64,000 nt of DNA from a virus. A program made the position numbers and the translations under genes. Position 1 is the stretch's first letter. Each line of letters begins with the position of its first letter. The notes under the pieces were generated by a model that was not told where the DNA came from, did no database searches, and worked only from the letters and a program-made list of their open reading frames with translations. Positions 1,386 through 33,288 of this stretch are shown here, piece by piece. The DNA is taken from IMG/VR virus record IMGVR_UViG_3300032053_012801. The stretch is one strand, 5' to 3'.

Positions 1386-1560
1386 CCATTAGATTGTGTT
1401 GTAAAACTTTTGTCGTGCCATCAAGTGTATTAAACCAAAGTAGTAATCTGTCATTTTGCACAGTAAAACAGTCGTACAAAGACTTATGTTCTCCGCATGG
1501 TTTGACATCTTTAAATTTGTCTTTAGCAGTTTGAATCAATTTTTCTTTAATGTGTTCCAT
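1363..1560 (-). CDS. hypothetical protein
   Basis: 65-aa ORF sitting in an overlapping gene chain. Confidence 0.3.
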   Translation of the reverse strand: MEHIKEKLIQTAKDKFKDVKPCGEHKSLYDCFTVQNDRLLLWFNTLDGTTKVLQHNLMDEVHECA

Positions 1561-2173
1561 CGATTATCCTATTTGGCAACCATTTTGTTTTCCAGTGATC
1601 ATCAGTTTTGACATGGGCTTTTCGAACCCATTTTGCTATATTAATACTCATCTTATCAACTGGAAATTCATCTACGTTCCTCACAACATAGCCTTCAATT
1701 TCATCACCAAATGCAGACTTCGTTGGTACTTTGAACGTAGCATCAAACATTCCCTTGTGCAAAATCGGCACATATTTCAAGTCAAGATAATCACAAATTT
1801 CAAGCGTGTCATGAACAGATAGAAAAAACTCACCTTCTAAATCGATTGCTGCAAATACATAGAAAAATGTTGATAGCTTGTCATAGAAAATACTATGCTT
1901 AGCATAGACATTTTCTCCTACAATTTGAATGTATTCGGGTATTTTCCACGCTATTTGAGCATGAAGTGATTTGACCCATGACTGAGATGGATGATGCGCG
2001 GACTCTTCGCTTCTAGCATGACACCCGTGTTTTTTCATTGACGTACATTCGCCATCTAACTTCTCAGTATAAATTACGTTCTCACCTATCAAACACTGGT
2101 CATTCTCAAGTATCTCGTCGTCATCTGAGATACTTTCAGAGTTAGCGAGGTGCCTAGTTCTAGGATACTTCAT
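1547..2173 (-). CDS. ATP-dependent RNA ligase-like nucleotidyltransferase (Rnl family)
   Basis: Carries KLDGE (nucleotidyltransferase motif I KxDG) and EGYVVRN (motif IV-like), plus a basic C-terminus. The 208-aa size is typical of small Rnl/DRB0094-type ligases. Confidence 0.55.
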   Translation of the reverse strand: MKYPRTRHLANSESISDDDEILENDQCLIGENVIYTEKLDGECTSMKKHGCHARSEESAHHPSQSWVKSLHAQIAWKIPEYIQIVGENVYAKHSIFYDKLSTFFYVFAAIDLEGEFFLSVHDTLEICDYLDLKYVPILHKGMFDATFKVPTKSAFGDEIEGYVVRNVDEFPVDKMSINIAKWVRKAHVKTDDHWKTKWLPNRIIDGTH

Positions 2174-2177
2174 ATGC

Positions 2178-2414
2178 CTACCTCAATCTCAACATTCTAC
2201 AGATTCTAGACCACAAACTCAGTCTTGATTGCGTAGAGTTTTCGGCATTTCTACGCCATCTCCTTACAACATACCAGTAGTCTTTATATTGTCTATGACA
2301 ATTCTTATAGGGACCGAACTGTAATTTCTTACCATTCATTTCAACGATAAGCAAATAACCCTTCGCATGTATATAATCAGCAGTATCTAAGTTAATGTGC
2401 CGAATTCTACTCAA
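2178..2414 (-). CDS. hypothetical protein
   Basis: 78-aa ORF. Confidence 0.3.
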   Translation of the reverse strand: MSRIRHINLDTADYIHAKGYLLIVEMNGKKLQFGPYKNCHRQYKDYWYVVRRWRRNAENSTQSRLSLWSRICRMLRLR

Positions 2415-2742
2415 TTTCTTTTATCTCGACTTTCAAATGTTTCATCATCCATTCAGCTACTAAATGTCTATGGCAAAACTTTCCAGATTTTTCCCAACAC
2501 AAAATCACAGCATCTTCACCAAGCTCTTCAAAAACCTGCTTTGGATCTAACTCATCTAACACTTCTTTTTGATACTGCAATTTATAGAATTCTTCATCAC
2601 CATCTAGTTTGTACTTCTTGAAAAACCAATACTTAGGTGCCAGCTTTTTGTACTGACGACCAGTAAACCAATCGGGAGCTTTTCCAGCTATGGATACTGC
2701 TTGTGGATGCTTCGAAGACTTTGCATAGTATGATGTTTGCAT
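2407..2742 (-). CDS. DUF488-family protein
   Basis: The pattern ...KAPDWF...ILCWEKSGKFCHRHLVAEW resembles the DUF488 conserved C-terminus (CHRhLlA). Confidence 0.45.
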   Translation of the reverse strand: MQTSYYAKSSKHPQAVSIAGKAPDWFTGRQYKKLAPKYWFFKKYKLDGDEEFYKLQYQKEVLDELDPKQVFEELGEDAVILCWEKSGKFCHRHLVAEWMMKHLKVEIKEIE

Positions 2743-2744
2743 TG

Positions 2745-3314
2745 CTAGTAGCGGGCAAAAGCAACTAGTGAAGTAAACTTATCTATCTTTGTATCATAAA
2801 CACTACCATAAATCTCTGTTAACGGGAAAATACTCAAAACTTGTTTGAGCTCTTCATACTTATAATGCCATTTGTGAAAGCCTCTAAATTCTTCTTGAGA
2901 TTTTGGATGATACGGAAAGACATCACCATTAGGTGTGGTAATAACCAATTCTTTTCCTCTTGTACGAATACTATCTATCAAACTAATAGCTTCATCGTGT
3001 AAGAAATGTTCGATAGACTCGACCATCACCACAATATCACAATCCTTAATATATTCTTTGAGATAATCTCCATTTGTAAAACCTAAATTACTCTGACCGA
3101 ACGTTGACTTTGCCTCATCAATAGCTTCTTGACAAGGATCATAACCTCTAACGAATCTCTTAGTATGTTGGGCCAATAGATACGTTCCGTGACCTATGCC
3201 ACAACCAATTTCAAGGATAGACTTGTCTTTGCAAAACGGTAATATTGATTTGTATCTCCACTGCGAACTCTCAATTTCATGACCTATTGTCGGCCGCTCA
3301 CCTGTGAAATTCAT
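2745..3314 (-). CDS. class I SAM-dependent methyltransferase
   Basis: Motif I ILEIGCGIGHGT followed by acidic DIVVMVESIEH (motif II/III-like). Confidence 0.6.
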   Translation of the reverse strand: MNFTGERPTIGHEIESSQWRYKSILPFCKDKSILEIGCGIGHGTYLLAQHTKRFVRGYDPCQEAIDEAKSTFGQSNLGFTNGDYLKEYIKDCDIVVMVESIEHFLHDEAISLIDSIRTRGKELVITTPNGDVFPYHPKSQEEFRGFHKWHYKYEELKQVLSIFPLTEIYGSVYDTKIDKFTSLVAFARY

Positions 3315-3345
3315 TTCTTGACTCTTTTACGTTTACTTTTGTAAA

Positions 3346-3419
3346 TATCCCGGGCGAGAATTGAACTCACAACCCCGAAATTAGAAATTTCGTGCTCTAT
3401 CCAATTGAGCTACCGGGAC
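3346..3419 (-). tRNA. tRNA-Arg (anticodon TCT)
   Basis: The reverse complement folds as a cloverleaf: acceptor GTCCCGG/CCGGGAT, D-arm GCTC..GAGC, anticodon stem CGAAA/TTTCG with loop TTTCTAA, T-arm GTGAG-TTCAATT-CTCGC. Confidence 0.8.
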
Positions 3420-3425
3420 GTTAAT

Positions 3426-4784: not shown

Positions 4785-5717
4785 ATGATAGACCAACAAA
4801 TATTAGAACTTTACAACAGTGGCAATGTCACGGTGACAGCTCTAAATCAACAATTTGGTAAATTAGTCGTTAATCATGCATTGAAAAATAAACGACGATC
4901 ACCGCAAGCTGCTCAAAAAATAGCTAGAAAACTCTTACCAGAAAGTTACAAACTAACAGATGAAACAAAACAGAAAATATCTCAAATCAGAAAAAAATAT
5001 ATAGCTGACCATCCTGAAAAGATTCCATATTTTAATAAACCCCCAAGAGACAGTTGGCCTGAAAAAATATTTGAAAATGCTTTACAGCGACATAATATAA
5101 CTGATTGGGTTAAGCATTATAGAATCTTTAAATATGAATACGATTTTGCTTTTCCTTTACTAAAAATTGATGTCGAAATAGACGGCAGCATGCACAAAGA
5201 AGATAAAGACAAAATACGAGACGACTGGTCAAAGTCGCAACAATGGACAGTCATCAGATTTAAGGCAAAACACGTTTTGCGTGATGTCGAATCATGCATA
5301 AGTTTGCTAAAAAAATATCTTGAAAGCAATTCGCTTGATATACAGAGTCAAATAAACACATCATTCTTAGCAACAAAAGGTCAAAATCAACGGAACAGCT
5401 TTTCTCAAAACAATCAACTTGAAGCTTCGTCTTATATACAAAATCAAATAAACGAATCATTTTTAATGACAAGAACTCAAGGAGAACGAAATAAAATACT
5501 AAATCAGCAAAAACAGCAAGAAAAGAAACAAGCACATCAAAAATTACAGCAAGATAAAATCGATAAAATACTACAATCAGGTATTGACTTTTCAAGTTTT
5601 GGTTGGGTAAAACAAGTAGCTCATATGACTAACACTCTGCCACAAAAAGTTAACAAATGGATGAAGAAAAACATGCCTGACTTTTATGAAAACAACTGTT
5701 TTAAGCGTGCGCGCTAA
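4785..5717 (+). CDS. DUF559/Vsr-like endonuclease-domain protein (freestanding homing-endonuclease-like) with Gln-rich C-terminus
   Basis: Carries ...KIDVEIDGSMHKEDKDKIRDDWSKSQQWTVIRFKA, the DUF559 'ExDGxxH...R' core. It is the only plus-strand gene in a minus-strand block. Confidence 0.5.
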   Translation: MIDQQILELYNSGNVTVTALNQQFGKLVVNHALKNKRRSPQAAQKIARKLLPESYKLTDETKQKISQIRKKYIADHPEKIPYFNKPPRDSWPEKIFENALQRHNITDWVKHYRIFKYEYDFAFPLLKIDVEIDGSMHKEDKDKIRDDWSKSQQWTVIRFKAKHVLRDVESCISLLKKYLESNSLDIQSQINTSFLATKGQNQRNSFSQNNQLEASSYIQNQINESFLMTRTQGERNKILNQQKQQEKKQAHQKLQQDKIDKILQSGIDFSSFGWVKQVAHMTNTLPQKVNKWMKKNMPDFYENNCFKRAR

Positions 5718-6424
5718 TCTTCTCTAACATTGACATGTTTTTCAACATAATCCCTATTCTTTGAGAATATCGGTATTTGCAAATCAACTACATTGTCAAC
5801 AATACAAAAACCTCGTTTTCTTACTACAGGATACTTGTCAAAATTGATGCCCTTCTGAAACAACATTTCTTGAATATCATTACATGACTTCTGAAACAAA
5901 TCTTTGTGCGAATAATTCTCACGACCGGCCATCTGAATTGCATTGCGTGTTGCGTCGATTTGCCTCCAGATGAAATAATTAGTCACTTCATCTTGAGGTA
6001 CAGAAAATACTCTACTATCAAAGCATACATTCTTACCATAGAGCCTTGAGAACACACTGCTAGCTAATGAAGCTGAAATCGATATCATCTTACAGACATC
6101 ATAGTCAAACCACGAATCAGTTGTTATCGTCTTATAATCAGTCAATAGAAAACTAATCTCATCCGACTGACAATAACAAAATTTGCAACCTTGTATATCT
6201 TTAGCTACTACTTTCGCTGTTTCAATCATTTGGTCAACAAATTCCATTGACCATCCCTTACCAAACCTCTTGCGAGTAATAGTGTGAAATGCTCGGCCAT
6301 CTATTCTCAAAATCACTGGTATCCTGTGAGGCAACGTCCAGTGAAAACATGACTCGTAGCGTTTCATACGATCGCCAATAGATAATCCGTCAGACTTGCT
6401 CATGGTCTTATTCCTACTGTACAA
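5714..6424 (-). CDS. Thg1-like protein (tRNA-His guanylyltransferase family / tRNA 5'-end repair)
   Basis: ILRIDGRAFHTITRK... and ...CQSDEISFLL match the Thg1 signatures (RxDGxxFHxF and SDExSF). Confidence 0.65.
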   Translation of the reverse strand: MYSRNKTMSKSDGLSIGDRMKRYESCFHWTLPHRIPVILRIDGRAFHTITRKRFGKGWSMEFVDQMIETAKVVAKDIQGCKFCYCQSDEISFLLTDYKTITTDSWFDYDVCKMISISASLASSVFSRLYGKNVCFDSRVFSVPQDEVTNYFIWRQIDATRNAIQMAGRENYSHKDLFQKSCNDIQEMLFQKGINFDKYPVVRKRGFCIVDNVVDLQIPIFSKNRDYVEKHVNVRED

Positions 6425-13490: not shown

Positions 13491-13976
13491 TCAATTTCTA
13501 TAATCTTCTTGATTTTTTGCAACAACGTTATTCTCAACATCCCAAAACACTTCTTTTTTAATCTCAACTTCATCGGGTTTCTTTGGCCACCATGTAACAC
13601 TATAATAAATCATAGTCTTTGACACGGGATCTGACATCATCTCGCAAACATTTTGCGAACTTGACGTCCCATCCAACGAAAACAAACCAGGCATAACCCT
13701 TCTTACTGGTAATCTAAGCGCATTCAACATTGTCGGACTTCCATCACTCATTCGTACATTTTGTGCATCGATAATCTGTTCTCTAGTATAATCACTAGTC
13801 TCAACCCATTTCTTCTTAAACTTCACAGGCACATTCTTTAACGCAGCTTCAATAACTTTCAAACACTCAGAACAATGATGAGGATCATTATACTCCGGCA
13901 TAAACCCATACGTACTTGGATGATACGTATACACGCAATTACAATGATCACACCTTTTAATTCTTGACGTTGTCAT
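13491..13976 (-). CDS. hypothetical zinc-ribbon protein
   Basis: 161-aa ORF with CDHCNC...HHCSEC at the N-terminus. Confidence 0.4.
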   Translation of the reverse strand: MTTSRIKRCDHCNCVYTYHPSTYGFMPEYNDPHHCSECLKVIEAALKNVPVKFKKKWVETSDYTREQIIDAQNVRMSDGSPTMLNALRLPVRRVMPGLFSLDGTSSSQNVCEMMSDPVSKTMIYYSVTWWPKKPDEVEIKKEVFWDVENNVVAKNQEDYRN

Positions 13977-20286: not shown

Positions 20287-20292
20287 GTTACT

Positions 20293-20370: not shown

Positions 20371-20383
20371 AAAACTTAAAAAT

Positions 20384-20456: not shown

Positions 20457-20543
20457 AGTTATCATACTTTTGCAAAAATCGTCTAACTTGTGTATGAGAT
20501 AGATGATCAATCTAATGCCATGCTGTTGTACTGCAGATATTAA

Positions 20544-20617
20544 CGGGAGCGACGGGGTATGATCCCGCAACTTTCGGATAGACGGTCCGATATTCTACCA
20601 TTTTGAATTACGCTCCC
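20544..20617 (-). tRNA. tRNA-Asp (anticodon GTC), atypical loops
   Basis: Reverse complement reads GGGAGCG-TA-ATTC..GAAT-A-TCGGA-CCGTCTA-TCCGA-AAGTT-GCGGG-ATCATAC-CCCGT-CGCTCCC-G. Discriminator G as in Asp. The T-loop and positions 33/37 are non-canonical. Confidence 0.6.
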
Positions 20618-20637
20618 AAATACAGTCAACTCCGAAA

Positions 20638-20720
20638 TGCGGATGACAGGACTTGAACCTGCACGAGATTGCTCCCGCTACCACCTCAAAGTAGTGTGTT
20701 TACCATTTCACCACATCCGC
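20638..20720 (-). tRNA. tRNA-Leu (anticodon GAG), type II
   Basis: Acceptor GCGGATG/CATCCGC. Anticodon stem CTACT/GGTAG with loop TTGAGGT. Variable arm CGGGAGCAATCTCGT. T-arm GCAGG-TTCAAGT-CCTGT. Confidence 0.75.
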
Positions 20721-20827
20721 AAGAAATTCTGACAGTTGATCATTCCTACGACCAGTCCTGCCGGCACACTGTCGAGTGCCTTGGGAACTGGTACCGTTTC
20801 CGGTTCTAAGTTTGATCTTGTATAATA

Positions 20828-20911
20828 TGCGAAGAGCGAGAGTTGAACTCGCAAGGAATTACTTCCGCTGGGTCCTAAGCCCAGTGCGTCTGCCAATTCC
20901 GCCATCCTCGC
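20828..20911 (-). tRNA. tRNA-Leu (anticodon TAG), type II
   Basis: Reverse complement reads GCGAGGA-TG-GCGG-AATTGGCAGA-CGC-A-CTGGG-CTTAGGA-CCCAG-(long variable arm)-GCGAG-TTCAACT-CTCGC-TCTTCGC-A. Confidence 0.8.
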
Positions 20912-20962
20912 GTAATTACGTTCTCAAATGTGCTTCATCATCAATATGTCAAAGAGCTTTAA

Positions 20963-21039
20963 CTGGTGAGCGCGGTCAGGTTCAAACTGACGATCTCTTG
21001 ATTAAGAATCAAGTGCATTAATCAACTTTGCTACGCGCC
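20963..21039 (-). tRNA. tRNA-Lys (anticodon CTT), CCA encoded
   Basis: Acceptor GGGCGCG/CGCGCTC. Anticodon stem CTTGA/TCAAG with loop TTCTTAA. T-arm GTCAG-TTTGAAC-CTGAC. Confidence 0.7.
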
Positions 21040-21053
21040 CTAATTCAATGTAA

Positions 21054-21127
21054 GTACCCGCAGTTGGATTTGAACCAACGGCTTAGTCATTAAAAGTGAC
21101 TTACTCTAGCCAACTGAGTTATGCGGG
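21054..21127 (-). tRNA. tRNA-Lys (anticodon TTT)
   Basis: Reverse complement reads GCCCGCA-TA-ACTC..GAGT-A-AGTCA-CTTTTAA-TGACT-AAGCC-GTTGG-TTCAAAT-CCAAC-TGCGGGT-A. Confidence 0.8.
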
Positions 21128-21182
21128 CATTTACTTATTTCAAAGATCACTAGTAATTGTCAATTGAATCATGCAACTAGCT

Positions 21183-21260
21183 TGGGGTGAATGATGGGCC
21201 TCGAACCCACAACCTTCGGAATCACGATCCGATGCTCTAGCCAATTGAGCTACATCCACC
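21183..21260 (-). tRNA. tRNA-His (anticodon GTG) with encoded G-1 and CCA
   Basis: Reverse complement reads G-GTGGATG-TA-GCTC..GAGC-A-TCGGA-TCGTGAT-TCCGA-AGGTT-GTGGG-TTCGAGG-CCCAT-CATTCAC-C-CCA. The extra 5' G pairs with C73. Confidence 0.85.
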
Positions 21261-21270
21261 ATAAATTCAG

Positions 21271-21360
21271 TGGCCCCGGCAGGATTTGAACCTGCGATGT
21301 GAGCCGTAAGCTCAGACAGATTAAAAATCTGTTACCCTCGATCCGCTAGGTGACGGAGCC
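21271..21360 (-). tRNA. type II tRNA (Ser-like D-loop, 5-bp variable-arm hairpin) carrying anticodon TTT; identity uncertain
   Basis: Reverse complement reads GGCTCCG-TC-ACCT-AGCGGATCGA-GGGT-A-ACAGA-TTTTTAA-TCTGT-C-TGAGC-TTACG-GCTCA-CATC-GCAGG-TTCAAAT-CCTGC-CGGGGCC-A. A long variable arm combined with a Lys anticodon is a non-canonical pairing. Confidence 0.5.
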
Positions 21361-24612: not shown

Positions 24613-24614
24613 GA

Positions 24615-26194: not shown

Positions 26195-27088
26195 TTATTT
26201 CTCTCCAACTGCTAGATTGAAATCACACTTGAAATCCATACAATACTTACTACAAATAGGATCATTTTTCGGTTCGTGTTTCTTATACCACTTCAATCGA
26301 TCTGTTTTAATGTCTCCTGACATTTCACCAATAGCATTACCCTTTTCTCTAGCATAAACTAAACAAGGATAATGTTTTGTACCTACTATAGAGATATCAC
26401 TCTTTGCAATCTCGCACTTGAAAGGTCTATCAATCCCTCGCATGTTTTTACCTTGTCTGAATCTTGTCACGCGATAATTCAAAATAGGATACTTTGAATA
26501 ATCGCAATCACTAAATACAGGCATGACTTCATCATGTGTTGAAATTGACAACTTTATGTCATGTACGCCAAGCCCAAGGACATACTGAATGATCTGTTCA
26601 ATTCTATCTCGATTGAGTGAGTCAATTACAATACCAACGTTGACATACGTCAATTTAGATAGCGCTTTGATGTTATCGATTACACGCTGAGGATTTTCAT
26701 AACCTCGATTAATCAGTATTTGAGTATCATAATCATCAAGTGATATCGAAAACATATCTACATGAAGACCTTTGTACAAATCTAATGATGCAGAACCATT
26801 TGTTGAAAGCCCTAACCTGATTTTGTGAGCCTTTATAAAACTGCATAAGTAGTACAAATAAATACTGGTTGTAGGTTCTCCGCCCGTCAATTGAATGTGG
26901 CGTAAAGAATTTCGTTCAGCGTAAATGAATTTGCGAACAGTTTCATAATCGATTTCTGATCTTAGTCTATTGCAATACTTACAATGAAAGTTGCATACTC
27001 CTGTTAAAGCAAGTTCACAGTACCAGAAACCATTTCCTGTATACTTTACTCGCTCTTCAGTGATCTCGCTAAATCCAGTATTCAACAT
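26195..27088 (-). CDS. radical SAM protein with C-terminal Cys cluster
   Basis: CNFHCKYC (CxxxCxxC), LTGGEPT and LSTNGS. The C-terminus adds Cys residues (CEIAK...C..YC..FKC), suggesting an auxiliary cluster. Confidence 0.65.
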   Translation of the reverse strand: MLNTGFSEITEERVKYTGNGFWYCELALTGVCNFHCKYCNRLRSEIDYETVRKFIYAERNSLRHIQLTGGEPTTSIYLYYLCSFIKAHKIRLGLSTNGSASLDLYKGLHVDMFSISLDDYDTQILINRGYENPQRVIDNIKALSKLTYVNVGIVIDSLNRDRIEQIIQYVLGLGVHDIKLSISTHDEVMPVFSDCDYSKYPILNYRVTRFRQGKNMRGIDRPFKCEIAKSDISIVGTKHYPCLVYAREKGNAIGEMSGDIKTDRLKWYKKHEPKNDPICSKYCMDFKCDFNLAVGEK

Positions 27089-27331: not shown

Positions 27332-28495
27332 TTATGCTTTTATGACAGCTAATGGTGAAAGTTCTACTACAATATCCACCAAATCTTTTTGATTGTCCAT
27401 AACAACACTTATGTCTTTGTAAGCACCGGCAGCTTCATCTAAGTCAGCTTTATTTCGAATGGCATGAATGATGCCTTGATCATCAAGTAGTTTCTTTTCG
27501 GCATCTAAATTCAATTCTCTTTGTGCTTGTTTCCGTCCCATTTTTCTACCAGCACCGTGCGAGCATGACATGAATGAATCTTCATTACCTTTGCCACGTA
27601 CTACATAGCTTTTTGTACCTTGAGAACCGGGTATCAATCCGATTTGATCTTTTCTGGCTGATGTCGCACCTTTTCTGTGAACAATGACATCTTCACCAAA
27701 ATGATGTTCCCAAGCTGCATAATTGTGATGAATGTTGATTGTTTCATCAAACGTAATTCCTGAAATATCAAAAGATTGTTTTATTGTGTCAATCATTCGA
27801 AATCTGTTCTCTTTTGCAAACTCAAGTGCAAACTTCATGACATCAAAGTATTCATGTGCTTCTTTTGTTTCCATTGGAAGAAACGAAAGGTCTTTGTCGG
27901 GTATACTCGAATACCATTTCTCGCATAGCCATTGTGCTTTCTTATGATATTCATTGGCTATTTTCAAGCCAAAATTCCGAGAACCAGAATGTAGCATGAC
28001 CCAAACAAAACCATCTGATCCCTTTTGAATCTCAATGAAGTGATTGCCACCTCCTAGCGTACCAAGCTGAGTCTGTGCTGTACTCAATTGCTGTTGAATA
28101 ATTGCTACATTAGGTGCTCGATCAAACCCTTCCCACGATATTTTCTCTTTGTGATGTTCGAATCCTACAGGGACTGCTTCACGAATCCTTCCCATTGTCT
28201 TTTTCAATTCATCTTTGTCAATTGATTGCAATGACGTCTTAACTGCACACATGCCGCAACCAATGTCAACACCAACAGCATTTGGAACTATGACGCCTTT
28301 GGTTGCCATAACGCCGCCAATTGGCATCCCGTAGCCAACGTGCCCGTCAGGAGACAAAGAAATATGACTAAATACAAAAGGTAATATTGCCAAATTCTCT
28401 ACTTGTTTAACCATTGCATCATCAGCATAATAGCTACTTTCGTTCATCCAGACTTTTACTGGCACACGAAATTGATCTTTTTTATATGAAAACAT
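27332..28495 (-). CDS. rtcB: RtcB-family RNA-splicing ligase (3'-phosphate/5'-OH RNA ligase)
   Basis: PDGHVGYG, DIGCGMC, GGGNHF, HNYAAWEHH, HRKGATSA and SHGAGR: the full set of RtcB metal- and GTP-binding motifs. Confidence 0.9.
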   Translation of the reverse strand: MFSYKKDQFRVPVKVWMNESSYYADDAMVKQVENLAILPFVFSHISLSPDGHVGYGMPIGGVMATKGVIVPNAVGVDIGCGMCAVKTSLQSIDKDELKKTMGRIREAVPVGFEHHKEKISWEGFDRAPNVAIIQQQLSTAQTQLGTLGGGNHFIEIQKGSDGFVWVMLHSGSRNFGLKIANEYHKKAQWLCEKWYSSIPDKDLSFLPMETKEAHEYFDVMKFALEFAKENRFRMIDTIKQSFDISGITFDETINIHHNYAAWEHHFGEDVIVHRKGATSARKDQIGLIPGSQGTKSYVVRGKGNEDSFMSCSHGAGRKMGRKQAQRELNLDAEKKLLDDQGIIHAIRNKADLDEAAGAYKDISVVMDNQKDLVDIVVELSPLAVIKA

Positions 28496-29368
28496 TCATT
28501 TCTCACTTTCTAAAAACATTATCATTTTGTCTGTCACACTTTTAATGTCATTTTTAATTTCATCTTCCCAAAAATACAGAAACTTATAACCCTTACTTTC
28601 TAAATAACGCGCTCTTTCTAAATCTTTTAGTCGTTTTACTTCATCATTTGATGAATTATGATATTTTGGATTCTTGTGCCAATAATCACCATAGCACTCT
28701 ATTATTAGCCTCTTATACACTAAAAAGTCAACATTGTATTTACCAATTTGAGTGTTCCTCTTATAGTCATCAACTTCTTTTAATCCAAGAAATAGCAAAA
28801 CTGAATTAATAGTTTCTTCTATTGAAGTTTTTGAATGTTTAGCTGTGCCCGCGCAAATCCAATTTATTAAAATCTGCCATCTTTTCTCATTACTGTAATT
28901 TTTCCAATTTTCAACATGTGACTGACTCATAAGTTGTAATGAGTCAGTTGAATGCGTCTTATTAAAGAAACTGTTATTTTCTCCCGAGCAATCATAATGA
29001 TTCTTCTTCATTTGCTCGCGAGCTTTTAACGAATGCTTTTTATTATAAAAATTGTTACGTTCTCCTAATTGAACGCATGACTTACACAATCCTGACGCTT
29101 TTGGGCCCGGCCTCCTCTTCAACTGCTTGCCACAATCTAGACAAAAGCTTTTTACTAATTTTCGTCCTATCCATCGTCCATTCTTTTCGTCTTTACAAGC
29201 ATAAGAATTTAGAACGTCATCATCAGCAATCTTAGTTACACCATGCTTTTTCTTGTACTCTCTAACACTCAATCCACAACATGACTGTAAATGTCTATAA
29301 ACTATTGCCCTAACCACTTTATTACATTCAAGACAAATCACGACTTGTTCCAACAAGAATAGAGTCAA
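28496..29368 (-). CDS. DUF559/Vsr-like endonuclease-domain protein with N-terminal zinc fingers (homing-endonuclease-like)
   Basis: Several Cx2C pairs, then ...IIECYGDYWHKNPKY...RYLESKGYKFLYFWEDEI (ExDGxxWH core). Confidence 0.5.
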   Translation of the reverse strand: MTLFLLEQVVICLECNKVVRAIVYRHLQSCCGLSVREYKKKHGVTKIADDDVLNSYACKDEKNGRWIGRKLVKSFCLDCGKQLKRRPGPKASGLCKSCVQLGERNNFYNKKHSLKAREQMKKNHYDCSGENNSFFNKTHSTDSLQLMSQSHVENWKNYSNEKRWQILINWICAGTAKHSKTSIEETINSVLLFLGLKEVDDYKRNTQIGKYNVDFLVYKRLIIECYGDYWHKNPKYHNSSNDEVKRLKDLERARYLESKGYKFLYFWEDEIKNDIKSVTDKMIMFLESEK

Positions 29369-29537: not shown

Positions 29538-29972
29538 TTATACATTTTTGAGTCCAACTAGAGCAGGATCAGGAATTGGTATGTTAATTCCTATTGGCCG
29601 CCACAAATGTAAACAATGAGGATGTTGGTTTACATATAGACTTTTGGGAGGATGAAATTGAAAAACTGCATCTTCTTGATCCCAAAATAGATCTTTGACT
29701 TCACTCATTTCAATCCAATTTGGACATCGATTCTTCAATGACACTGAAACGTGCTCCCAACCATAACCGTCACTAGCTATAGCAAACACTGTCATGCAGT
29801 TTGTAGTTGGCACAAAAAATGCGCCATTGTTACCATCCGAGTCTTCGCTCGTATATGGATGATTTTGCTTTCGAAATCTATACAGATTTGGTACGTGAAA
29901 CATGCTTTGTCCAAGTATTGAAATTACAAGTCTTGTATAGAAAAAGAATAATATCGACGACTTCTTTGTCAT
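29538..29972 (-). CDS. hypothetical protein
   Basis: 144-aa ORF. Confidence 0.35.
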   Translation of the reverse strand: MTKKSSILFFFYTRLVISILGQSMFHVPNLYRFRKQNHPYTSEDSDGNNGAFFVPTTNCMTVFAIASDGYGWEHVSVSLKNRCPNWIEMSEVKDLFWDQEDAVFQFHPPKSLYVNQHPHCLHLWRPIGINIPIPDPALVGLKNV

Positions 29973-30549
29973 CTCCGTACTTTGTATACAGCATGCTTTT
30001 CAAATCCGGTTGTTCAATTTTATCAGATCCGTCTTTGATTTCTGTTTTTCTGTTGTTAAAAGCATCCACAAAATCACAAATAGATATGATTGTTGAAATT
30101 TCCAAAACTTTTTTGATAGTTGACGGTGACCAATTCTCAGGAAAAGCATTTCGATCTAAACCGTAACCTGCTTTGTAAAGATTATGATGCAAACCTGCAC
30201 AAAGAGCCGTGAACATGTGCAGCTTCTTGAGAGCCTTGTAGCCTGCTTGGGCATGAGTTTTTACATTATCGTATTCTACTGCATCTATGTTATGTCCGTC
30301 AAATAACTGAGCTGGCAGTAAAAGTTTGCCGGCATCATGTAGAAGACCTGCAAAAAAGGCAGCTTTTGCATCTTTTCGCAGTTTCTTTGCTGTTGCTTCT
30401 GCAAGCAGTGCTACTCTTTCCAAATGATCTTTTGTAGAAACATGATTCACATCACACATGGCCAGAATTAAACGAGCAGTGTGTGCAAGATCGCCTTTTG
30501 GATTGTACGCTCGAATTTTTGATTCGATTAGAGTAGATCGCTTCATCAA
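29878..30549 (-). CDS. HD-domain phosphohydrolase
   Basis: ...AGLLHDAGK... and HHN..YKAGYG: the HD motif. Confidence 0.55.
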   Translation of the reverse strand: MMKRSTLIESKIRAYNPKGDLAHTARLILAMCDVNHVSTKDHLERVALLAEATAKKLRKDAKAAFFAGLLHDAGKLLLPAQLFDGHNIDAVEYDNVKTHAQAGYKALKKLHMFTALCAGLHHNLYKAGYGLDRNAFPENWSPSTIKKVLEISTIISICDFVDAFNNRKTEIKDGSDKIEQPDLKSMLYTKYGDDKEVVDIILFLYKTCNFNTWTKHVSRTKSV

Positions 30550-31067: not shown

Positions 31068-31239
31068 TATCTACACCTTTCAAAAATTCTGTATAACATC
31101 GCGCAGAACAGCATCTGTGATTTGCTGGTATGTCTCCGTATACACGCGTCGATTCTTTGACATTGAATGATTTACTGCAGACTCTACAGCTTATGTTTTT
31201 AGCCATAGTATAATAGTCAATTAGAATAGCTATGAAAAA

Positions 31240-31311
31240 TGCCTCGAGCCAGATTTGAACTGGCGATAACGGTTTTAGAGACCGTCACTTTGACCGCTAA
31301 GTTATCGAGGC
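31240..31311 (-). tRNA. suppressor tRNA (anticodon CTA, reads UAG amber)
   Basis: Reverse complement reads GCCTCGA-TA-ACTT-AGCGGTCA-AAGT-G-ACGGT-CTCTAAA-ACCGT-TATC-GCCAG-TTCAAAT-CTGGC-TCGAGGC-A. This is a clean class I cloverleaf with anticodon 5'-CUA-3' at positions 34-36. Confidence 0.75.
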
Positions 31312-31318
31312 ATTTCCA

Positions 31319-31702
31319 TCATGCAAGCGGTAGAGATTTGAAAATCTCACCAGTGTCATAACAAGCTACAGCTGTTGGTCTATTGTCTTGATCTGGTTCA
31401 ATAAATGTCGCAGACAATTTATTTTGCAAACACAAAAGACTTGACCAATGTTCGATTCCACTTGCAAAGCGGACACTCAAAAATATCAAATGCCCATTAT
31501 TCCACTGGCGAAATACCTCAGGATATCTCAATGCGAATTGCGCTAATGCATGAGTACCTTGCACACATCTGTATGTCTCGGCAAGATCACTACGCACAAG
31601 CACATACATCTTTGGCTTGTCCATGTTGGATCTCCCGGATAAATTGTTGAACAATGTCCATGTTCGGCTCATTACCTTCGCGAGGCTTTTCAATACGCTC
31701 AT
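31319..31702 (-). CDS. hypothetical protein
   Basis: 127-aa ORF. Confidence 0.4.
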   Translation of the reverse strand: MSVLKSLAKVMSRTWTLFNNLSGRSNMDKPKMYVLVRSDLAETYRCVQGTHALAQFALRYPEVFRQWNNGHLIFLSVRFASGIEHWSSLLCLQNKLSATFIEPDQDNRPTAVACYDTGEIFKSLPLA

Positions 31703-31883
31703 ACGGCGTTCCTCTCAGAATACAATACGCAATATGTTTGAGCCGAATATGACTTTTCATTATGTGCAATTGACATTGCTTTAATGCGCTTGCAGCATCA
31801 TGAGGTTTTGAAAGTTCGACTTTAGTCTGTCGAATCTCGAGGGCTTTAGTCTTGAGTTCATTCTTAAGAATTGTCAAATCCAT
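31590..31883 (-). CDS. hypothetical protein
   Basis: 97-aa ORF overlapping the downstream gene. Confidence 0.3.
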   Translation of the reverse strand: MDLTILKNELKTKALEIRQTKVELSKPHDAASALKQCQLHIMKSHIRLKHIAYCILRGTPYERIEKPREGNEPNMDIVQQFIREIQHGQAKDVCACA

Positions 31884-32023
31884 GATATACTCCTAGTTTA
31901 TTGTTGTTTGTTGACAGACAATTAACGTAGAAGTATATCAGGCGGTGCTCGTATGTGCACCTATGTGAAGCCGATAATCTACAACATAGCTACATCCTTA
32001 TTGAAAAACTTCATGATTCCATG

Positions 32024-32323
32024 CTAAGCAGGACAACCCTGTTGTTGTTCGATGACATCCGGTTCAGTCTTTGCTGCTTCTACGTGAGGTGCATCGATAA
32101 CTGTATTTACAGCAGCGACAAGTGCCTCTTCAACCGGTTTGAGCACTTCAACACAGTTTGATGCTGCCGGACTGCAACGCAGACACATTGAGTTCGCGCA
32201 CTTTTCTGTATGCTCGTGCTCAGCTGCATGATCGCATGCAATAATCATCTTGTCATTTTTGTTTTTACCGGCCGTAGCTGTCTTGAGAATTCCACATGTC
32301 TTCACGTTCTCACAGATAACCAT
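32024..32323 (-). CDS. hypothetical Cys-rich protein
   Basis: 99-aa ORF. Confidence 0.35.
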   Translation of the reverse strand: MVICENVKTCGILKTATAGKNKNDKMIIACDHAAEHEHTEKCANSMCLRCSPAASNCVEVLKPVEEALVAAVNTVIDAPHVEAAKTEPDVIEQQQGCPA

Positions 32324-32393
32324 TTCATTTTCTCCTTACATAGAATGATAGAAAATTCCAATATACGATTAATCATGCCAATTGTCAATGAAA

Positions 32394-32466
32394 AGCCGCC
32401 AAGAGGATTTGAACCTCCGACCTACTGCTTACGAAGCAGTTGCTCTACCAACTGAGCTATAGCGGC
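32394..32466 (-). tRNA. tRNA-Thr (anticodon CGT)
   Basis: Reverse complement reads GCCGCTA-TA-GCTC..GAGC-A-ACTGC-TTCGTAA-GCAGT-AGGTC-GGAGG-TTCAAAT-CCTCT-TGGCGGC-T. Confidence 0.8.
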
Positions 32467-32473
32467 ACTTATA

Positions 32474-32548
32474 TGGAGACGACAGGGAGATTTGAACTCC
32501 CGATAACAGTTTTGCAGACTGCTGCCTTACCAGCTTGGCTATGCCGTC
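32474..32548 (-). tRNA. tRNA-Cys (anticodon GCA), U73, CCA encoded
   Basis: Reverse complement reads GACGGCA-TA-GCCA..GGC-A-GCAGT-CTGCAAA-ACTGT-TATC-GGGAG-TTCAAAT-CTCCC-TGTCGTC-T-CCA. Confidence 0.85.
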
Positions 32549-32551
32549 ACA

Positions 32552-32941
32552 TTAATTGTGCAAAAACAATTTCACGAATTCCTTTGGTGGTACAATACCA
32601 TGTCGATGAGCACTTACATCAATTAACGTGACTGTATGTTGCTCGTCTACGTGGTGTCCTGCGAATGAGTTTGCACCGTAGAATTCAAAAAATGCCACGA
32701 CCTTCTCGTACCGCTGTGCCCTAAAAATCTTTGAGAGTTCGTCTCCATATTTATGTTTGACGAGTTCGTCTGCTTTACTGAGCCACGGCTGGTCAGTACC
32801 GAGCAGTCTTGTTCTACTACCGAATTTCCAGAAGCCTTTTTTTGGATGCCACTCCGCTCGAATATTCGAGCCATCAAGTTTGTCGAACGCATACGCTTGA
32901 ACCGATCGTATATCATGTGAAATTGACGGATACTGTTTCAT
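32552..32941 (-). CDS. RNA ligase-like nucleotidyltransferase N-terminal domain (second Rnl paralogue, short, possibly truncated)
   Basis: AFDKLDGSNIRAEWHPKKGFWKFGSR: KxDG motif I in the same context as ORF 1547..2173. At 129 aa it ends at the tRNA-Cys boundary. Confidence 0.4.
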   Translation of the reverse strand: MKQYPSISHDIRSVQAYAFDKLDGSNIRAEWHPKKGFWKFGSRTRLLGTDQPWLSKADELVKHKYGDELSKIFRAQRYEKVVAFFEFYGANSFAGHHVDEQHTVTLIDVSAHRHGIVPPKEFVKLFLHN

Positions 32942-33288
32942 CTGTGCATTCCGCCTTTCATTACTGTTTCTGCACAGCCTGCAACTATCATTGTAAAATA
33001 GTCAAATGATTCAAATGTTCTTTCTTTAAGATCATCAAGTTTACTCAAGATCTTTGTTACTTGATGTTTCTCTAATAGCAACGGTATCTTCTTGGACTTC
33101 ATTCCGCAATGCACATGCATCTGTAACATGTCATTCATTGACTGAAATGATATATTTACTGTTTCATTTTCTACAATGAAGTCCAATTTATCCTCATCTT
33201 CTATGTCAAACTTCCGACCGCAATTGCCACACTTATTACAATCAATTGTGTCATACACACAACCATCACTTTTATCGTCTATCCACAT
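32938..33288 (-). CDS. hypothetical Cys-rich protein (start trimmed; the track ORF N-terminus reads through tRNA-Ser)
   Basis: The internal Met at 33288 (MWIDDKSDGCVYDTIDCNKCGNCGRKF...) avoids overlap with the tRNA at 33309-33393. Confidence 0.35.
   Translation of the reverse strand: MWIDDKSDGCVYDTIDCNKCGNCGRKFDIEDEDKLDFIVENETVNISFQSMNDMLQMHVHCGMKSKKIPLLLEKHQVTKILSKLDDLKERTFESFDYFTMIVAGCAETVMKGGMHR

What the first reader, a model, noticed from the sequence alone, without database searches (positions are those of the whole stretch)
1547..33288. Distributed RNA-repair and tRNA-maintenance gene set interleaved with the tRNA genes
The set comprises RtcB (27332-28495, all catalytic motifs intact), two Rnl-type KxDG RNA-ligase-like ORFs (1547-2173 complete; 32552-32941 short), a Thg1-like 3'-5' polymerase (5714-6424), a PTH2 peptidyl-tRNA hydrolase fused to a zinc ribbon (13973-14488), an HD phosphohydrolase (29878-30549), and radical SAM enzymes of unknown substrate (26195-27088; 45276-45980).

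Together with the tRNA array, this looks like a counter-defence module against host anticodon nucleases (PrrC/RloC/colicin-type). RtcB or Rnl would reseal cleaved tRNAs and Thg1-like would rebuild 5' ends. Several members (PTH2, Thg1-like) are archaeal- or eukaryotic-type families that are rare in phages.
Basis: partly seen in the sequence, partly recalled or inferred. Interest (0 to 1): 0.65.

Follow-up and report, generated by a model that had tools for sequence, protein, structure and literature searches.

The report
Phage tRNA array with tRNA-repair genes
This is the tRNA region of a large uncultivated phage, carrying the known jumbo-phage kit for repairing tRNAs and freeing stalled ribosomes (RtcB, a small RNA ligase, a Thg1-like enzyme, PTH2). 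Its one new feature is a small PTH2-like protein that sits next to an amber-suppressor tRNA gene in many phages.

Summary
Profile searches confirm every listed ORF: RtcB (all metal and His ligands aligned), a complete 208-aa RNA_ligase-family (PF09414) ligase, a Thg1-like enzyme, a zinc-ribbon–PTH2 fusion, an HD protein and two radical SAM proteins. They lie among 30 tRNA genes plus one tRNA-Leu(UAA) split by a group I intron.

- The short KxDG ORF is a truncated ligase lacking motifs IV and V.
- The HD protein is HD-GYP-like; its closest solved relative is a cGAMP phosphodiesterase.
- The radical SAM proteins are twitch/SPASM-type with no RNA link by homology.
- No end-healing kinase or phosphatase was found.
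- The Thg1-like enzyme is the bacterial TLP type, not archaeal or eukaryotic.
- Relatives lack or swap several of these genes, so they are mobile accessory cargo.

New here: ORF 31319–31624 has a PTH2 fold and directly precedes tRNA(CTA). In 72 of 80 viral loci encoding this family, a suppressor tRNA lies within 2 kb. A 264-nt tRNA-like RNA (18965–19228) remains unexplained.

The parts
1547..2173 (-). Complete minimal (208 aa) ATP-dependent RNA ligase of the PF09414 RNA_ligase family (XacN1 homologue; Iyer et al. place XacN1's ligases in Rnl2). By eye: KxDG motif I (EKLDGE), motif III, motif IV (EGYVVR), motif V (KWVRK).
   Evidence: PF09414 4e-25; phrog_34045 and phrog_24030 RNA ligase. Homologues in 33 phage records including XacN1 and Caulobacter jumbo phages. 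No relative in the PDB by sequence.
2407..2742 (-). DUF488-N3a protein of unknown function. It recurs near the radical SAM, PTH2 and PTH2-like genes in other large phages.
   Evidence: PF22751 4.5e-9. A 72%-identical copy lies 3 kb from a radical SAM-PTH2 pair in L100. DUF488-N3a also lies near the PTH2-like cassette in L113 and L117.
2745..3314 (-). Class I SAM-dependent methyltransferase, substrate unknown. A weak hit to the Hen1 methyltransferase domain falls far below its cutoff.
   Evidence: Several Methyltransf Pfam families at about 1e-9. TIGR04074 Hen1 scores 21 bits against a cutoff of 340.
5714..6424 (-). Thg1-like protein of the bacterial TLP type (a 3'-5' nucleotidyltransferase). 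The catalytic RIDGRAFH and QSDEISF motifs are present. The true start is probably the ATG 7 codons downstream.
   Evidence: PF04446 2.5e-23; phrog_4717 2.6e-72; PDB 4kgk 5e-54. 97% identical in the relative L073 but absent from the syntenic relative L009.
13973..14488 (-). NrdR-type zinc ribbon (residues 3-39) fused to a canonical PTH2 peptidyl-tRNA hydrolase (residues 48-171).
   Evidence: PF22811 plus PF01981; TIGR00283 above cutoff; PDB 2zv3 9e-24. The fusion is conserved in L009 (residues 4-171), L016 and L073.
14685..14990 (-). tRNA-Leu(UAA) gene interrupted in the anticodon loop by a 221-nt group I intron (about 14736-14956).
   Evidence: Rfam RF00028 53.6 bits against a gathering score of 50; aragorn -i. 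Conserved in L073 (88%) and L009 (75%) with compensatory changes in the acceptor and anticodon stems.
15000..15173 (-). A roughly 173-nt tRNA-like element with acceptor, D arm and T arm and a roughly 100-nt insertion. Probably a degenerate or interrupted tRNA gene.
   Evidence: Custom scan. Folding z-score only -1.5. Absent from the close relative, where the flanking tRNAs are about 25 nt apart.
18965..19228 (-). A 264-nt structured RNA with tRNA-like acceptor, D arm and T arm, an 8-nt loop (AAAAACGA) where the anticodon loop would be, and a roughly 185-nt structured insertion. Unclassified.
   Evidence: Scan. Folding z-score -4.46. No Rfam family. Identical in the relative L072 except for 2 pairing-preserving changes, while flanks are 80-85% identical.
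18224..21360 (-). Densest part of the tRNA array (17 tRNA genes). The whole array spans 3346-35156 with 30 ARAGORN tRNAs; 12 encode CCA. tRNA-His (21183-21259) has a genomically encoded G-1 at 21260.
26195..27088 (-). Twitch/SPASM-type radical SAM enzyme of a family specific to large phages, substrate unknown. Recurrently near tRNA arrays, PTH2 or RtcB.
   Evidence: PF04055. AF2 model pLDDT 96.5. Best folds are BlsE, SkfB, SuiB, anSME, viperin-like and MoaA. Neighbourhoods.
27332..28495 (-). RtcB 3'-phosphate/2',3'-cyclic-phosphate to 5'-OH RNA ligase with an intact active site.
   Evidence: PF01139 3.9e-111. Active-site alignment to PhoRtcB. Found in 698 phage records. In the close relative the same slot holds a 28%-identical, intein-containing RtcB.
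28496..29368 (-). Free-standing homing-endonuclease-like gene (NUMOD3 + DUF559) abutting RtcB. Others of this kind lie at 4785-5717 (+), 7037-7924, 8068-8679 and 33772-35013.
29878..30549 (-). HD-GYP-like HD-domain phosphohydrolase. More likely a cyclic-nucleotide phosphodiesterase than an RNA-end phosphatase.
   Evidence: PF01966. NCBIfam NosR-type c-di-GMP phosphodiesterase 1.4e-6. The only PDB hit is 5z7c V-cGAP3, 2.9e-5.
31590..31883 (-). ORF-A (97 aa, conserved motif HIAYCxLRGxxYExIEKP). First gene of the suppressor-tRNA cassette; it overlaps the start of the next gene.
   Evidence: Conserved at 40-95% identity in L099 and L113-L115. Detected directly upstream of the PTH2-like gene in 22 of 80 viral loci.
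31319..31624 (-). 101-aa divergent PTH2-fold protein with no Pfam match. Second gene of the suppressor-tRNA cassette.
   Evidence: phrog_1866 5.7e-6. AF2 pLDDT 96.7. The top 13 PDB fold matches are all PTH2, TM 0.67-0.82. The family has 681 cluster representatives at E<=1e-10.
31239..31312 (-). tRNA with a CUA anticodon (amber suppressor), starting 6 nt after the stop codon of the PTH2-like gene.
   Evidence: ARAGORN; Rfam tRNA 69.3 bits. The same juxtaposition occurs in 8 further lineages. 72 of 80 IMG/VR loci have a suppressor tRNA within 2 kb.
32552..32941 (-). Truncated RNA-ligase gene: the N-terminal 129 aa with motifs I and III, but motifs IV and V missing. Likely a non-functional remnant.
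   Evidence: phrog_548 partial hit. The full-length 206-aa homologue sits next to RtcB in L005. tblastn finds no C-terminal piece in the window. Absent from the close relative L099.
45276..45980 (-). Second radical SAM protein (234 aa). No evidence of an RNA role; it lies beside a sugar-modification cluster at 35.6-45 kb.
   Evidence: PF04055 3e-8; phrog_16999. Cluster content.

Best explanation
The region is the translation-support island of a large uncultivated phage. It holds about 31 tRNA genes interleaved with homing endonucleases and a variable set of enzymes that act on tRNA ends.

Inferred from family biochemistry:
- RtcB reseals tRNA halves that carry 2',3'-cyclic-phosphate and 5'-OH ends, the products of HEPN-type and colicin-type anticodon nucleases.
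- The 208-aa PF09414-family ligase seals 3'-OH/5'-phosphate nicks.
- The bacterial-type Thg1-like enzyme refills 5'-truncated acceptor stems in a templated way.
- The zinc-ribbon PTH2 releases peptides from peptidyl-tRNAs that drop off or jam ribosomes.

Together with the phage's own tRNA supply, these would keep translation running while the host, or the phage's own host shut-off, damages tRNAs.

Shown here: family memberships, intact active sites, physical interleaving with tRNA genes, and recurrence of PTH2 and the radical SAM gene in tRNA arrays of other large phages.

Inferred only: the substrates, the counter-defence purpose, and any cooperation between the genes.

The HD protein, both radical SAM proteins, DUF488, the methyltransferase and the truncated ligase cannot be assigned to RNA repair.
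For: - Family membership and catalytic residues.
- All genes share the strand of the tRNA genes and lie among them.
- In IMG/VR loci, PTH2 and the radical SAM family sit in tRNA-dense DNA (2.99 and 2.84 tRNAs per 10 kb). The radical SAM gene is directly next to PTH2 in L100 and within 6 kb of RtcB in L111.
- The RtcB slot is kept in the close relative although the gene there is only 28% identical and carries an intein, while flanking genes are 74-89% identical. An RtcB is therefore retained at this slot despite replacement of the gene.
- The same combination (tRNAs, RtcB/Rnl, Thg1, PTH2, occasional HD phosphatases) is described and interpreted this way for jumbo phages in PMC7824862.
- tRNA arrays associated with homing endonucleases, and an RtcB co-regulated with the array, are described for cyanobacteria in PMC8421152.
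Against: - There is no functional test.
- No polynucleotide kinase or phosphatase, CCA-adding enzyme or RlaP nucleotidyltransferase was found in the window. The ATP-dependent ligase therefore has no visible end-healing partner.
- In other viral contigs RtcB and Thg1-like genes are usually not near tRNA genes (0.30 and 0.37 tRNAs per 10 kb). Their placement here may be incidental.
- The syntenic relative L009 lacks the ligase, DUF488, the methyltransferase and Thg1 at the corresponding places. The set is not a conserved unit.
- Many neighbouring genes are homing endonucleases, so selfish spread could explain the co-location.
Confidence: 0.6

Rival explanations
1. Housekeeping rather than counter-defence. 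The enzymes mature and quality-control the phage's own unusual tRNA set and support high-rate translation of a large genome. That set includes genes without encoded CCA, an intron-containing tRNA-Leu, a suppressor tRNA and odd tRNA-like RNAs. On this view no host nuclease is involved.
For: - 18 of 30 tRNA genes lack an encoded CCA.
- The array holds a group I intron tRNA, a class II tRNA with a UUU anticodon, and tRNA-like RNAs.
- The window also encodes a trigger-factor-like chaperone.
- PTH2 and a PTH2-like protein are tied to tRNA arrays and suppressor tRNAs in many phages.
Against: - tRNA-His already encodes G-1.
- A group I intron self-splices and needs no RtcB.
- No maturation role in bacteria is known to me for RtcB or TLP (own knowledge, not searched here).
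- The published reading favours repair.
Confidence: 0.22
2. No module at all. The genes are independent accessory cargo that accumulates in a recombination-prone, endonuclease-rich tRNA region through homing and gene conversion. Their co-location says nothing about joint function.
For: - At least five homing-endonuclease-like genes lie in 35 kb.
- RtcB is replaced by a 28%-identical, intein-bearing version in the close relative.
- The ligase, Thg1, DUF488 and the methyltransferase are absent at syntenic sites in L009.
- One ligase gene is truncated next to tRNA genes.
- RtcB's closest relatives (53-59% identity) lie in unrelated contexts.
Against: - The cargo is strongly biased towards tRNA-acting families.
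- An RtcB is retained at the same slot despite replacement.
- PTH2 and the radical SAM gene recur in tRNA arrays of unrelated large phages.
Confidence: 0.13
3. RtcB acts as a splicing ligase for protein-spliced, non-group-I insertions in the two long tRNA-like genes (18965-19228 and 15000-15173), in the archaeal or eukaryotic manner.
For: Two tRNA-like genes carry 100-185-nt insertions that match no self-splicing ribozyme family. RtcB is the splicing ligase in archaea and metazoa.
Against: - No splicing endonuclease was found in the window.
- The 18965-19228 RNA has an intact hairpin with an 8-nt loop lacking U33 where the anticodon arm should be, and its insertion sits in the variable region. 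Excision would not give a decoding tRNA.
- The 15000-15173 element is absent from the close relative and is weakly structured.
Confidence: 0.04

Closest known systems
Jumbo-phage RNA-repair and ribosome-rescue repertoire (Iyer, Anantharaman, Krishnan, Burroughs, Aravind 2021, Viruses 13:63; examples include Xanthomonas phage XacN1 and the Caulobacter and Brevundimonas jumbo phages)
   Same: Large tRNA complement together with RtcB and/or Rnl2-family ligases, a sporadic Thg1, and archaeo-eukaryotic-type PTH2. XacN1 and Xoo-sp13 have homologues of the ligase, Thg1 and PTH2.
   Different: No nucleotide-level relative exists among 50,697 phage records. No PNK/HAD phosphatase, RlaP or CCA-adding enzyme lies in the window. 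PTH2 carries an NrdR-type zinc ribbon. A second, divergent PTH2-fold gene is tied to a suppressor tRNA.
Phage T4 PNK + Rnl1 healing-and-sealing pathway against the PrrC anticodon nuclease
   Same: The same logic: phage-encoded ligation of host-cleaved tRNA. T4 also has a homing endonuclease (SegB) in its tRNA region (PMC8421152).
   Different: Here the candidate sealing enzyme is RtcB, which ligates directly and needs no healing step. No PNK was found, and the ATP-dependent ligase belongs to the PF09414 (T4 Rnl2-type) family rather than Rnl1.
Bacterial Thg1-like proteins (B. thuringiensis TLP, PDB 4kgk)
   Same: Full-length alignment at E 5e-54 with conserved catalytic carboxylate motifs.
   Different: Encoded by a phage inside a tRNA array. 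The physiological substrate is unknown in both cases.
Cyanobacterial and plastid tRNA-Leu(UAA) group I intron
   Same: A group I intron within the anticodon loop of tRNA-Leu(UAA). The Rfam model scores above its gathering threshold, and the exons restore a canonical CUUAAAA loop.
   Different: It resides in a phage tRNA array and is conserved in three related phage contigs. I found no report of this in the papers I searched.
'Code-change module' of stop-codon-recoded phages (Borges et al., bioRxiv 2021.08.26.457843): suppressor tRNA + aminoacyl-tRNA synthetase + release factor
   Same: A phage-encoded suppressor tRNA lies next to protein genes that act on translation.
   Different: The partner here is a PTH2-fold protein, with ORF-A in a sub-clade. 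That paper does not mention it ('hydrolase' occurs 0 times). The window shows no in-frame TAG recoding, and TAG ends 18 of 64 minus-strand ORFs.

Membership tests
RtcB RNA ligase (PF01139) | Whole-protein profile score above the curated cutoff | tested here: met
   372.7 bits against a cutoff of 27.
RtcB RNA ligase (PF01139) | Metal ligands Asp/Cys (DIGCG), Asn-His (GNHF), His (HxGSR), His (HHN), and the guanylylated His (HGAGR) | tested here: met
   All aligned and identical to P. horikoshii RtcB.
RtcB RNA ligase (PF01139) | GTP/Mn-dependent joining of 3'-P or 2',3'-cyclic-P ends to 5'-OH ends | not testable with these tools
   Needs a biochemical assay.
ATP-dependent RNA ligase, RNA_ligase family PF09414 (T4 Rnl2 type): ORF 1547-2173 | Profile match to RNA_ligase rather than to DNA-ligase or capping-enzyme families | tested here: met
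   PF09414 is the only Pfam hit, 89.3 bits against a cutoff of 27. PHROG RNA ligase families also match.
ATP-dependent RNA ligase, RNA_ligase family PF09414 (T4 Rnl2 type): ORF 1547-2173 | Nucleotidyltransferase motifs I (KxDG), III, IV and V | tested here: met
   EKLDGE, IVGENVY, EGYVVR and KWVRK were read directly from the translation. The profile is covered over positions 2-171 of 171.
ATP-dependent RNA ligase, RNA_ligase family PF09414 (T4 Rnl2 type): ORF 1547-2173 | C-terminal domain of T4 Rnl2, needed for step 2 on nicked duplex RNA | tested here: not met
   The protein is 208 aa and ends with the nucleotidyltransferase domain.
ATP-dependent RNA ligase: ORF 32552-32941 | Motifs IV and V (the lysines essential for adenylylation and sealing) | tested here: not met
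   The ORF stops at the position equivalent to residue 138 of a 206-aa homologue that carries EGVIAK and MRKIKS. No such piece exists elsewhere in the window.
Thg1 / Thg1-like protein (PF04446) | Profile score above the cutoff and catalytic carboxylates (the D of xDGRxFH; the DE of SDE) | tested here: met
   82.9 bits against a cutoff of 29.2. RIDGRAFH and QSDEISF align to 4kgk and 3otb.
Eukaryotic-type Thg1 proper (template-independent G-1 addition to tRNA-His) | Closer to Thg1 than to TLP. Also a need for G-1 addition, meaning G-1 is not encoded in the tRNA-His gene. | tested here: not met
   BtTLP scores 5e-54 against human THG1 at 2.6e-7. G-1 is encoded at 21260 opposite C73.
PTH2 peptidyl-tRNA hydrolase (PF01981 / TIGR00283): ORF 13973-14488 | Curated equivalog score and conserved active-site region | tested here: met
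   110.5 bits against a cutoff of 82. KGKxxAQGxHA and DxGxTE are conserved against 2zv3.
PTH2 peptidyl-tRNA hydrolase: ORF 31319-31624 | PTH2 fold | tested here: met
   The top 13 PDB matches are all PTH2, TM 0.67-0.82, rmsd 2.2-3.6 A.
PTH2 peptidyl-tRNA hydrolase: ORF 31319-31624 | Sequence-level family membership and the conserved Gly-Lys of the KGK motif | tested here: not met
   No Pfam hit. BLAST against the window's own PTH2 gives E 0.18. The alignment shows Y/x at the GK position, while Q..HA and D..T are kept.
RNA 3'-end-healing phosphoesterase (HD-type): ORF 29878-30549 | Specific relationship to an RNA-end phosphatase or cyclic phosphodiesterase | tested here: not met
   Generic HD/HDIG hits only. 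The closest characterised relatives are HD-GYP cyclic-dinucleotide phosphodiesterases.
tRNA/RNA-modifying radical SAM enzymes (MiaB, TYW1, QueE, RlmN): ORF 26195-27088 | Closest sequence or fold relatives are RNA-modifying enzymes | tested here: not met
   All NCBIfam hits fall far below their cutoffs. The best folds are BlsE, SkfB, SuiB, anSME, viperin-like and MoaA; TYW1 ranks 37th.
T4-type heal-and-seal pathway | A polynucleotide kinase-phosphatase encoded with the ligase | tested here: not met
   No PNK, HAD or calcineurin-like hit in any ORF scanned in the window. It could lie outside the window.
Group I intron (RF00028) in tRNA-Leu(UAA) | Covariance-model score above the gathering threshold, with exons that form a canonical tRNA | tested here: met
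   53.6 bits against 50. Compensatory exon changes are seen across three phages.
Stop-codon-recoded phage (genetic code 15) | In-frame TAG codons in genes, TAG avoided as a stop codon | tested here: not met
   Treating TAG as a sense codon lengthens ORFs no more than TGA or TAA does. TAG ends 18 of 64 minus-strand ORFs and five of the genes discussed here. Late genes lie outside the window.

The most novel reading that the evidence does not exclude
The 101-aa PTH2-fold protein (31319-31624) belongs to a large, unnamed phage family that is a dedicated partner of phage stop-codon suppressor tRNAs. In a sub-clade it is preceded by ORF-A, and here it is followed 6 nt later by tRNA(CUA). Its likely activity is hydrolysis of the ester bond on aminoacyl- or peptidyl-suppressor tRNA. 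That would let it gate read-through, or clear ribosomes where suppression fails. If so, it is an undescribed component of phage 'code-change' machinery.

Separately, the nearly invariant 264-nt tRNA-like RNA at 18965-19228 could be a new non-coding RNA class, for example a tRNA-mimic cofactor analogous to the Y RNA-like or Band-7-associated tRNAs proposed to assist RtcB.
Probability: 0.4. Interest if true: 0.75.

Novelty: new member of a known kind. Interest (0 to 1): 0.45.

Why it matters
As submitted, the finding adds one more, very divergent, example to an already published pattern: large phages carry tRNAs plus tRNA-end repair and ribosome-rescue enzymes. It still offers useful material for testing that untested prediction.
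- An RtcB, a minimal 208-aa ligase and a bacterial-type TLP are all encoded by one phage.
- There are natural 'knock-out' relatives. One lacks the ligase and TLP, and another has swapped in an unrelated intein-bearing RtcB.

The more consequential result is the tight genomic coupling between a PTH2-fold protein family and suppressor tRNAs. Suppressors make up 75 of 411 tRNAs in those loci, against 4 of 384 in comparable tRNA-rich phage loci. How phages control the onset and the cost of stop-codon suppression is an open question, and this gives a concrete, clonable candidate factor.

Tried and rejected
- Megablast of 12 kb against phage records gave no match.
- An exact-protein look-up of RtcB gave nothing on record. 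The source contigs were later found through the radical SAM protein.
- I searched for the missing C-terminus of the short ligase by tblastn with word size 2. Only noise came back.
- I tested whether Thg1 is needed to add G-1 to tRNA-His. Rejected, because G-1 is encoded.
- I tested for TAG recoding inside the window. No sign of it.
- I looked for a Band-7-associated tRNA-like RNA next to the Band-7/NfeD genes. None turned up at E<=5.
- I tried to classify the 264-nt RNA. Rfam gave nothing at permissive thresholds, and blastn and nhmmer against 1.8 Mb of related loci found only the L072 copy. Two exact-pattern scans of the metagenome collection gave 0 hits. Its ARAGORN 'intron tRNA' call changes anticodon between the two near-identical copies (Gly in the window, Arg in L072), so I do not trust it.
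- I tested whether ORF-A always ends in TAG, which would suggest an autoregulatory read-through. Rejected, because its stop codons vary.
- BLASTP and PDB sequence searches failed to link ORF 31319-31624 to PTH2. Structure prediction was needed.
- The Burroughs and Aravind 2016 paper on RNA-repair systems could not be retrieved. What I say about it comes from secondary citations.
- The literature gave no function for DUF488.

Full report
**What the window is.** The 64-kb window has about 37% G+C. Genes run on the minus strand from 1-35 kb and 45-64 kb, and on the plus strand from 35-45 kb. It has no nucleotide-level relative among 50,697 phage records. Its proteins find their best matches in jumbo and huge phages. 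The identical region was assembled in at least four metagenome samples, on contigs up to 113 kb. A close relative exists: IMGVR_UViG_3300035659_001474, 128 kb, about 80-97% identical (loci L072, L073, L099, L120). A more distant syntenic relative also exists: IMGVR_UViG_3300031707_002920, 55-65% amino-acid identity (L009).

**Checking the observation.**
- RtcB: PF01139, E 3.9e-111. Every metal ligand and the His nucleophile align to P. horikoshii RtcB.
- ORF 1547-2173: a complete 208-aa PF09414 RNA ligase with motifs I, III, IV and V. Its homologues include one in XacN1, a phage that Iyer et al. credit with three Rnl2-family paralogues.
- ORF 5714-6424: a Thg1-like protein.
- ORF 13973-14488: an NrdR-type zinc ribbon fused to a canonical PTH2, scoring above the TIGR00283 equivalog cutoff. 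The fusion is conserved in L009, L016 and L073.
- HD and radical SAM domains are present.
- ARAGORN finds 30 tRNA genes, all on the minus strand. Rfam confirms 27 and adds a group I intron.

**Corrections to the gene list.**
- The short KxDG ORF (32552-32941) aligns to residues 1-138 of a 206-aa minimal ligase. That homologue sits 2.3 kb from an RtcB gene in another viral contig (L005). The window copy stops before motifs IV and V. tRNA-Cys begins 4 nt after its stop codon, and no C-terminal remnant is present anywhere in the window. The close relative lacks this ORF altogether. It is best read as a decayed gene.
- The Thg1-like protein is the bacterial TLP type: B. thuringiensis TLP scores 5e-54, against 2.6e-7 for human THG1.
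- The phage tRNA-His gene already encodes G-1 opposite C73, plus CCA. Templated 5'-end repair is therefore more likely than G-1 addition.
- The HD protein has only generic HD/HDIG matches. Its sole solved relative is the HD-GYP cGAMP phosphodiesterase V-cGAP3. A role in degrading cyclic-nucleotide signals is at least as likely as RNA-end healing.
- Radical SAM 26195-27088 gives a confident model (pLDDT 96.5). Its nearest folds are twitch/SPASM enzymes acting on nucleosides or peptides (BlsE, SkfB, SuiB, anSME, viperin-like, MoaA), not tRNA-modifying enzymes.
- Radical SAM 45276-45980 lies beside a plus-strand sugar-modification cluster. That cluster holds a TylF methyltransferase, a GT10 glycosyltransferase and a 1128-aa radical SAM-SPASM-GT1 fusion.
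- No polynucleotide kinase or phosphatase, CCA-adding enzyme or RlaP nucleotidyltransferase was found in any ORF scanned.

**Is the arrangement more than chance?** I compared tRNA density in IMG/VR loci fetched with each protein.

| Query protein | Loci | tRNAs per 10 kb |
|---|---|---|
| PTH2 | 63 | 2.99 |
| Radical SAM family | 7 | 2.84 |
| RtcB | 6 | 0.30 |
| Thg1-like | 26 | 0.37 |

So embedding in tRNA arrays is typical for PTH2 and this radical SAM family, but not for RtcB or TLP. The radical SAM gene is directly followed by PTH2 in L100, with a 72%-identical DUF488 3 kb away. It lies within about 6 kb of RtcB in L111.

The set is not a conserved unit. L009 keeps the backbone but lacks the ligase, DUF488, the methyltransferase and Thg1. 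In the close relative, the RtcB slot holds an RtcB that is only 28% identical and is interrupted by an intein at the DIGCGM cysteine. Its flanking genes are 74-89% identical. In the window, RtcB abuts a free-standing NUMOD3/DUF559 endonuclease, and at least four more homing-type endonucleases lie in the array. This is mobile accessory cargo, yet an RtcB has been retained at that position.

**Comparison with what is known.** Iyer et al. 2021 (PMC7824862, section 3.4.9) describe jumbo-phage tRNA complements supplemented by RtcB, Rnl1/Rnl2, kinases and phosphatases (occasionally HD), RlaP and CCA enzymes, sporadic Thg1, and archaeo-eukaryotic PTH2. They interpret all of this as repair and ribosome rescue against host tRNA cleavage. 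tRNA arrays associated with homing endonucleases, and an RtcB co-regulated with the array, are described for cyanobacteria, with T4 SegB as the phage precedent. The frequencies I measured among 50,697 phage records are RtcB 698, Thg1-like 160, the ligase 33 and PTH2 33.

**Most likely mechanism** (inferred from family biochemistry, not shown). RtcB directly reseals cyclic-phosphate/5'-OH breaks. The small ligase seals 3'-OH/5'-P nicks, with any healing enzymes lying outside the window or supplied by the host. TLP refills 5'-truncated acceptor stems. PTH2 recycles peptidyl-tRNA. The phage tRNAs replace depleted species. The rivals are housekeeping of the phage's own tRNAs, pure selfish co-location, and RtcB-dependent splicing of odd tRNA-like genes. 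They are listed with their evidence in the rival explanations.

**New observations inside the finding's coordinates.**

1. *Intron-containing tRNA-Leu.* tRNA-Leu(UAA) at 14685-14990 carries a 221-nt group I intron in its anticodon loop (RF00028, 53.6 bits). It is conserved in both relatives, with compensatory exon changes.

2. *A PTH2-fold protein next to an amber-suppressor tRNA.* ORF 31319-31624 has no Pfam match, and its true length is 101 aa. It folds confidently (pLDDT 96.7). Its top 13 PDB matches are all PTH2 (TM 0.67-0.82), and phage PTH2s lead the viral structure library.
   - It keeps Q..HA and D..T but lacks the Gly-Lys of canonical PTH2.
   - Its stop codon is 6 nt from tRNA(CUA) at 31239-31312.
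   - It is overlapped upstream by a conserved 97-aa ORF-A.
   - The same order recurs in L099, L113, L114, L115, L117, L118 and L048, with gaps of 3-57 nt. One lineage (L116) lacks the tRNA.
   - Of 80 IMG/VR loci (gene plus or minus 2 kb) encoding a family member, 72 contain a suppressor tRNA, always on the same strand. In 33, a suppressor (31 CTA, 1 TTA, 1 TCA) is the first tRNA within 150 nt downstream.
   - Suppressors are 75 of 411 tRNAs there, against 4 of 384 in the other tRNA-rich phage loci held. Two of those four also sit next to this family.
   - These loci are not de-replicated; many come from one sample.
   - The family has 681 cluster representatives at E<=1e-10.
   - The recoding literature I could search lists suppressor tRNA, synthetase and release factor as code-change genes. 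It does not mention a hydrolase.
   - The window itself shows no TAG recoding.

3. *An unclassified tRNA-like RNA.* The 264-nt RNA at 18965-19228 has tRNA-like ends, an 8-nt loop lacking U33, and a structured insertion of about 185 nt (z = -4.46). It matches no Rfam family. It is identical in the close relative except for two pairing-preserving changes, while flanks are 80-85% identical. I could not find further homologues, so it stays unexplained.

4. *A second, weaker tRNA-like element.* The element at 15000-15173 is weakly structured and absent from the relative.

**Verdict.** The finding as submitted is a new, divergent member of a known kind. The suppressor-tRNA-linked PTH2-fold family is the item that deserves follow-up.

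Noticed in passing
31239-31883 (-): A conserved cassette: ORF-A (97 aa), then a 101-aa PTH2-fold protein, then tRNA(CUA) 6 nt downstream. The protein family is linked to suppressor tRNAs in 72 of 80 viral loci. I found no description of this in the recoding papers I searched.
   Followed up: yes
18965-19228 (-): A 264-nt structured RNA (z -4.46) with tRNA-like acceptor, D arm and T arm, an 8-nt loop AAAAACGA in place of an anticodon loop, and a roughly 185-nt insertion. It matches no Rfam family. It is nearly invariant in a relative whose flanks are only 80-85% identical.
   Followed up: partly
15000-15173 (-): A second long tRNA-like element (about 173 nt), weakly structured, lying between tRNA-Met and the intron-containing tRNA-Leu. 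It is absent from the close relative.
   Followed up: partly
14685-14990 (-): tRNA-Leu(UAA) gene with a 221-nt group I intron in the anticodon loop, conserved in two related phage contigs with compensatory exon changes.
   Followed up: yes
27332-29368 (-); L099 7201-9613: The RtcB slot is a hot spot for mobile elements. In the window RtcB abuts a NUMOD3/DUF559 endonuclease gene. In the close relative the slot holds a 28%-identical RtcB split by an intein at the catalytic Cys, apparently with a frameshift.
   Followed up: partly
21270-21360 (-): A 91-nt class II tRNA (long variable arm, A73) with a UUU (Lys) anticodon. This is an unusual pairing of tRNA body type and anticodon.
   Followed up: no
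22831-25031 (-): Three consecutive paralogous ORFs (354, 161 and 138 aa) share an N-terminal MKH(L/I)AxIxxEF motif. They have no family match. Several copies also occur in the relatives L009 and L099.
   Followed up: no
35614-44976 (+): A plus-strand sugar-modification cluster: TylF-type O-methyltransferase, further methyltransferases, a GT10 fucosyltransferase-like protein, and a 1128-aa radical SAM-SPASM-GT1 fusion.
   Followed up: no
51502-53479 (-): A Band-7/SPFH-flotillin protein plus an NfeD partner. According to a secondary citation, Band-7 modules were proposed as RtcB-associated scaffolds with a tRNA-like RNA. No tRNA-like RNA was found next to them here.
   Followed up: partly
62910-63995 (-), 48962-50635 (-), 59648-61600 (-), 62132-62926 (-): A trigger-factor-like chaperone (Trigger_N/FKBP/Trigger_C), a PolX-PHP DNA polymerase, an NAD-dependent DNA ligase and a Cas4-like PD-(D/E)XK nuclease.
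   Followed up: no
2407-2742 (-); L100 6666-6995; L113 160-492; L117 1-297: The DUF488-N3a protein recurs within 1-3.5 kb of the radical SAM, PTH2 and PTH2-like/suppressor-tRNA genes in unrelated large phages. This hints at a shared but unknown role.
   Followed up: partly
29538-29972 (-): A DUF7694 protein overlaps the end of the HD-GYP-like gene. The pair is conserved in the close relative (73% and 89% identity).
   Followed up: no
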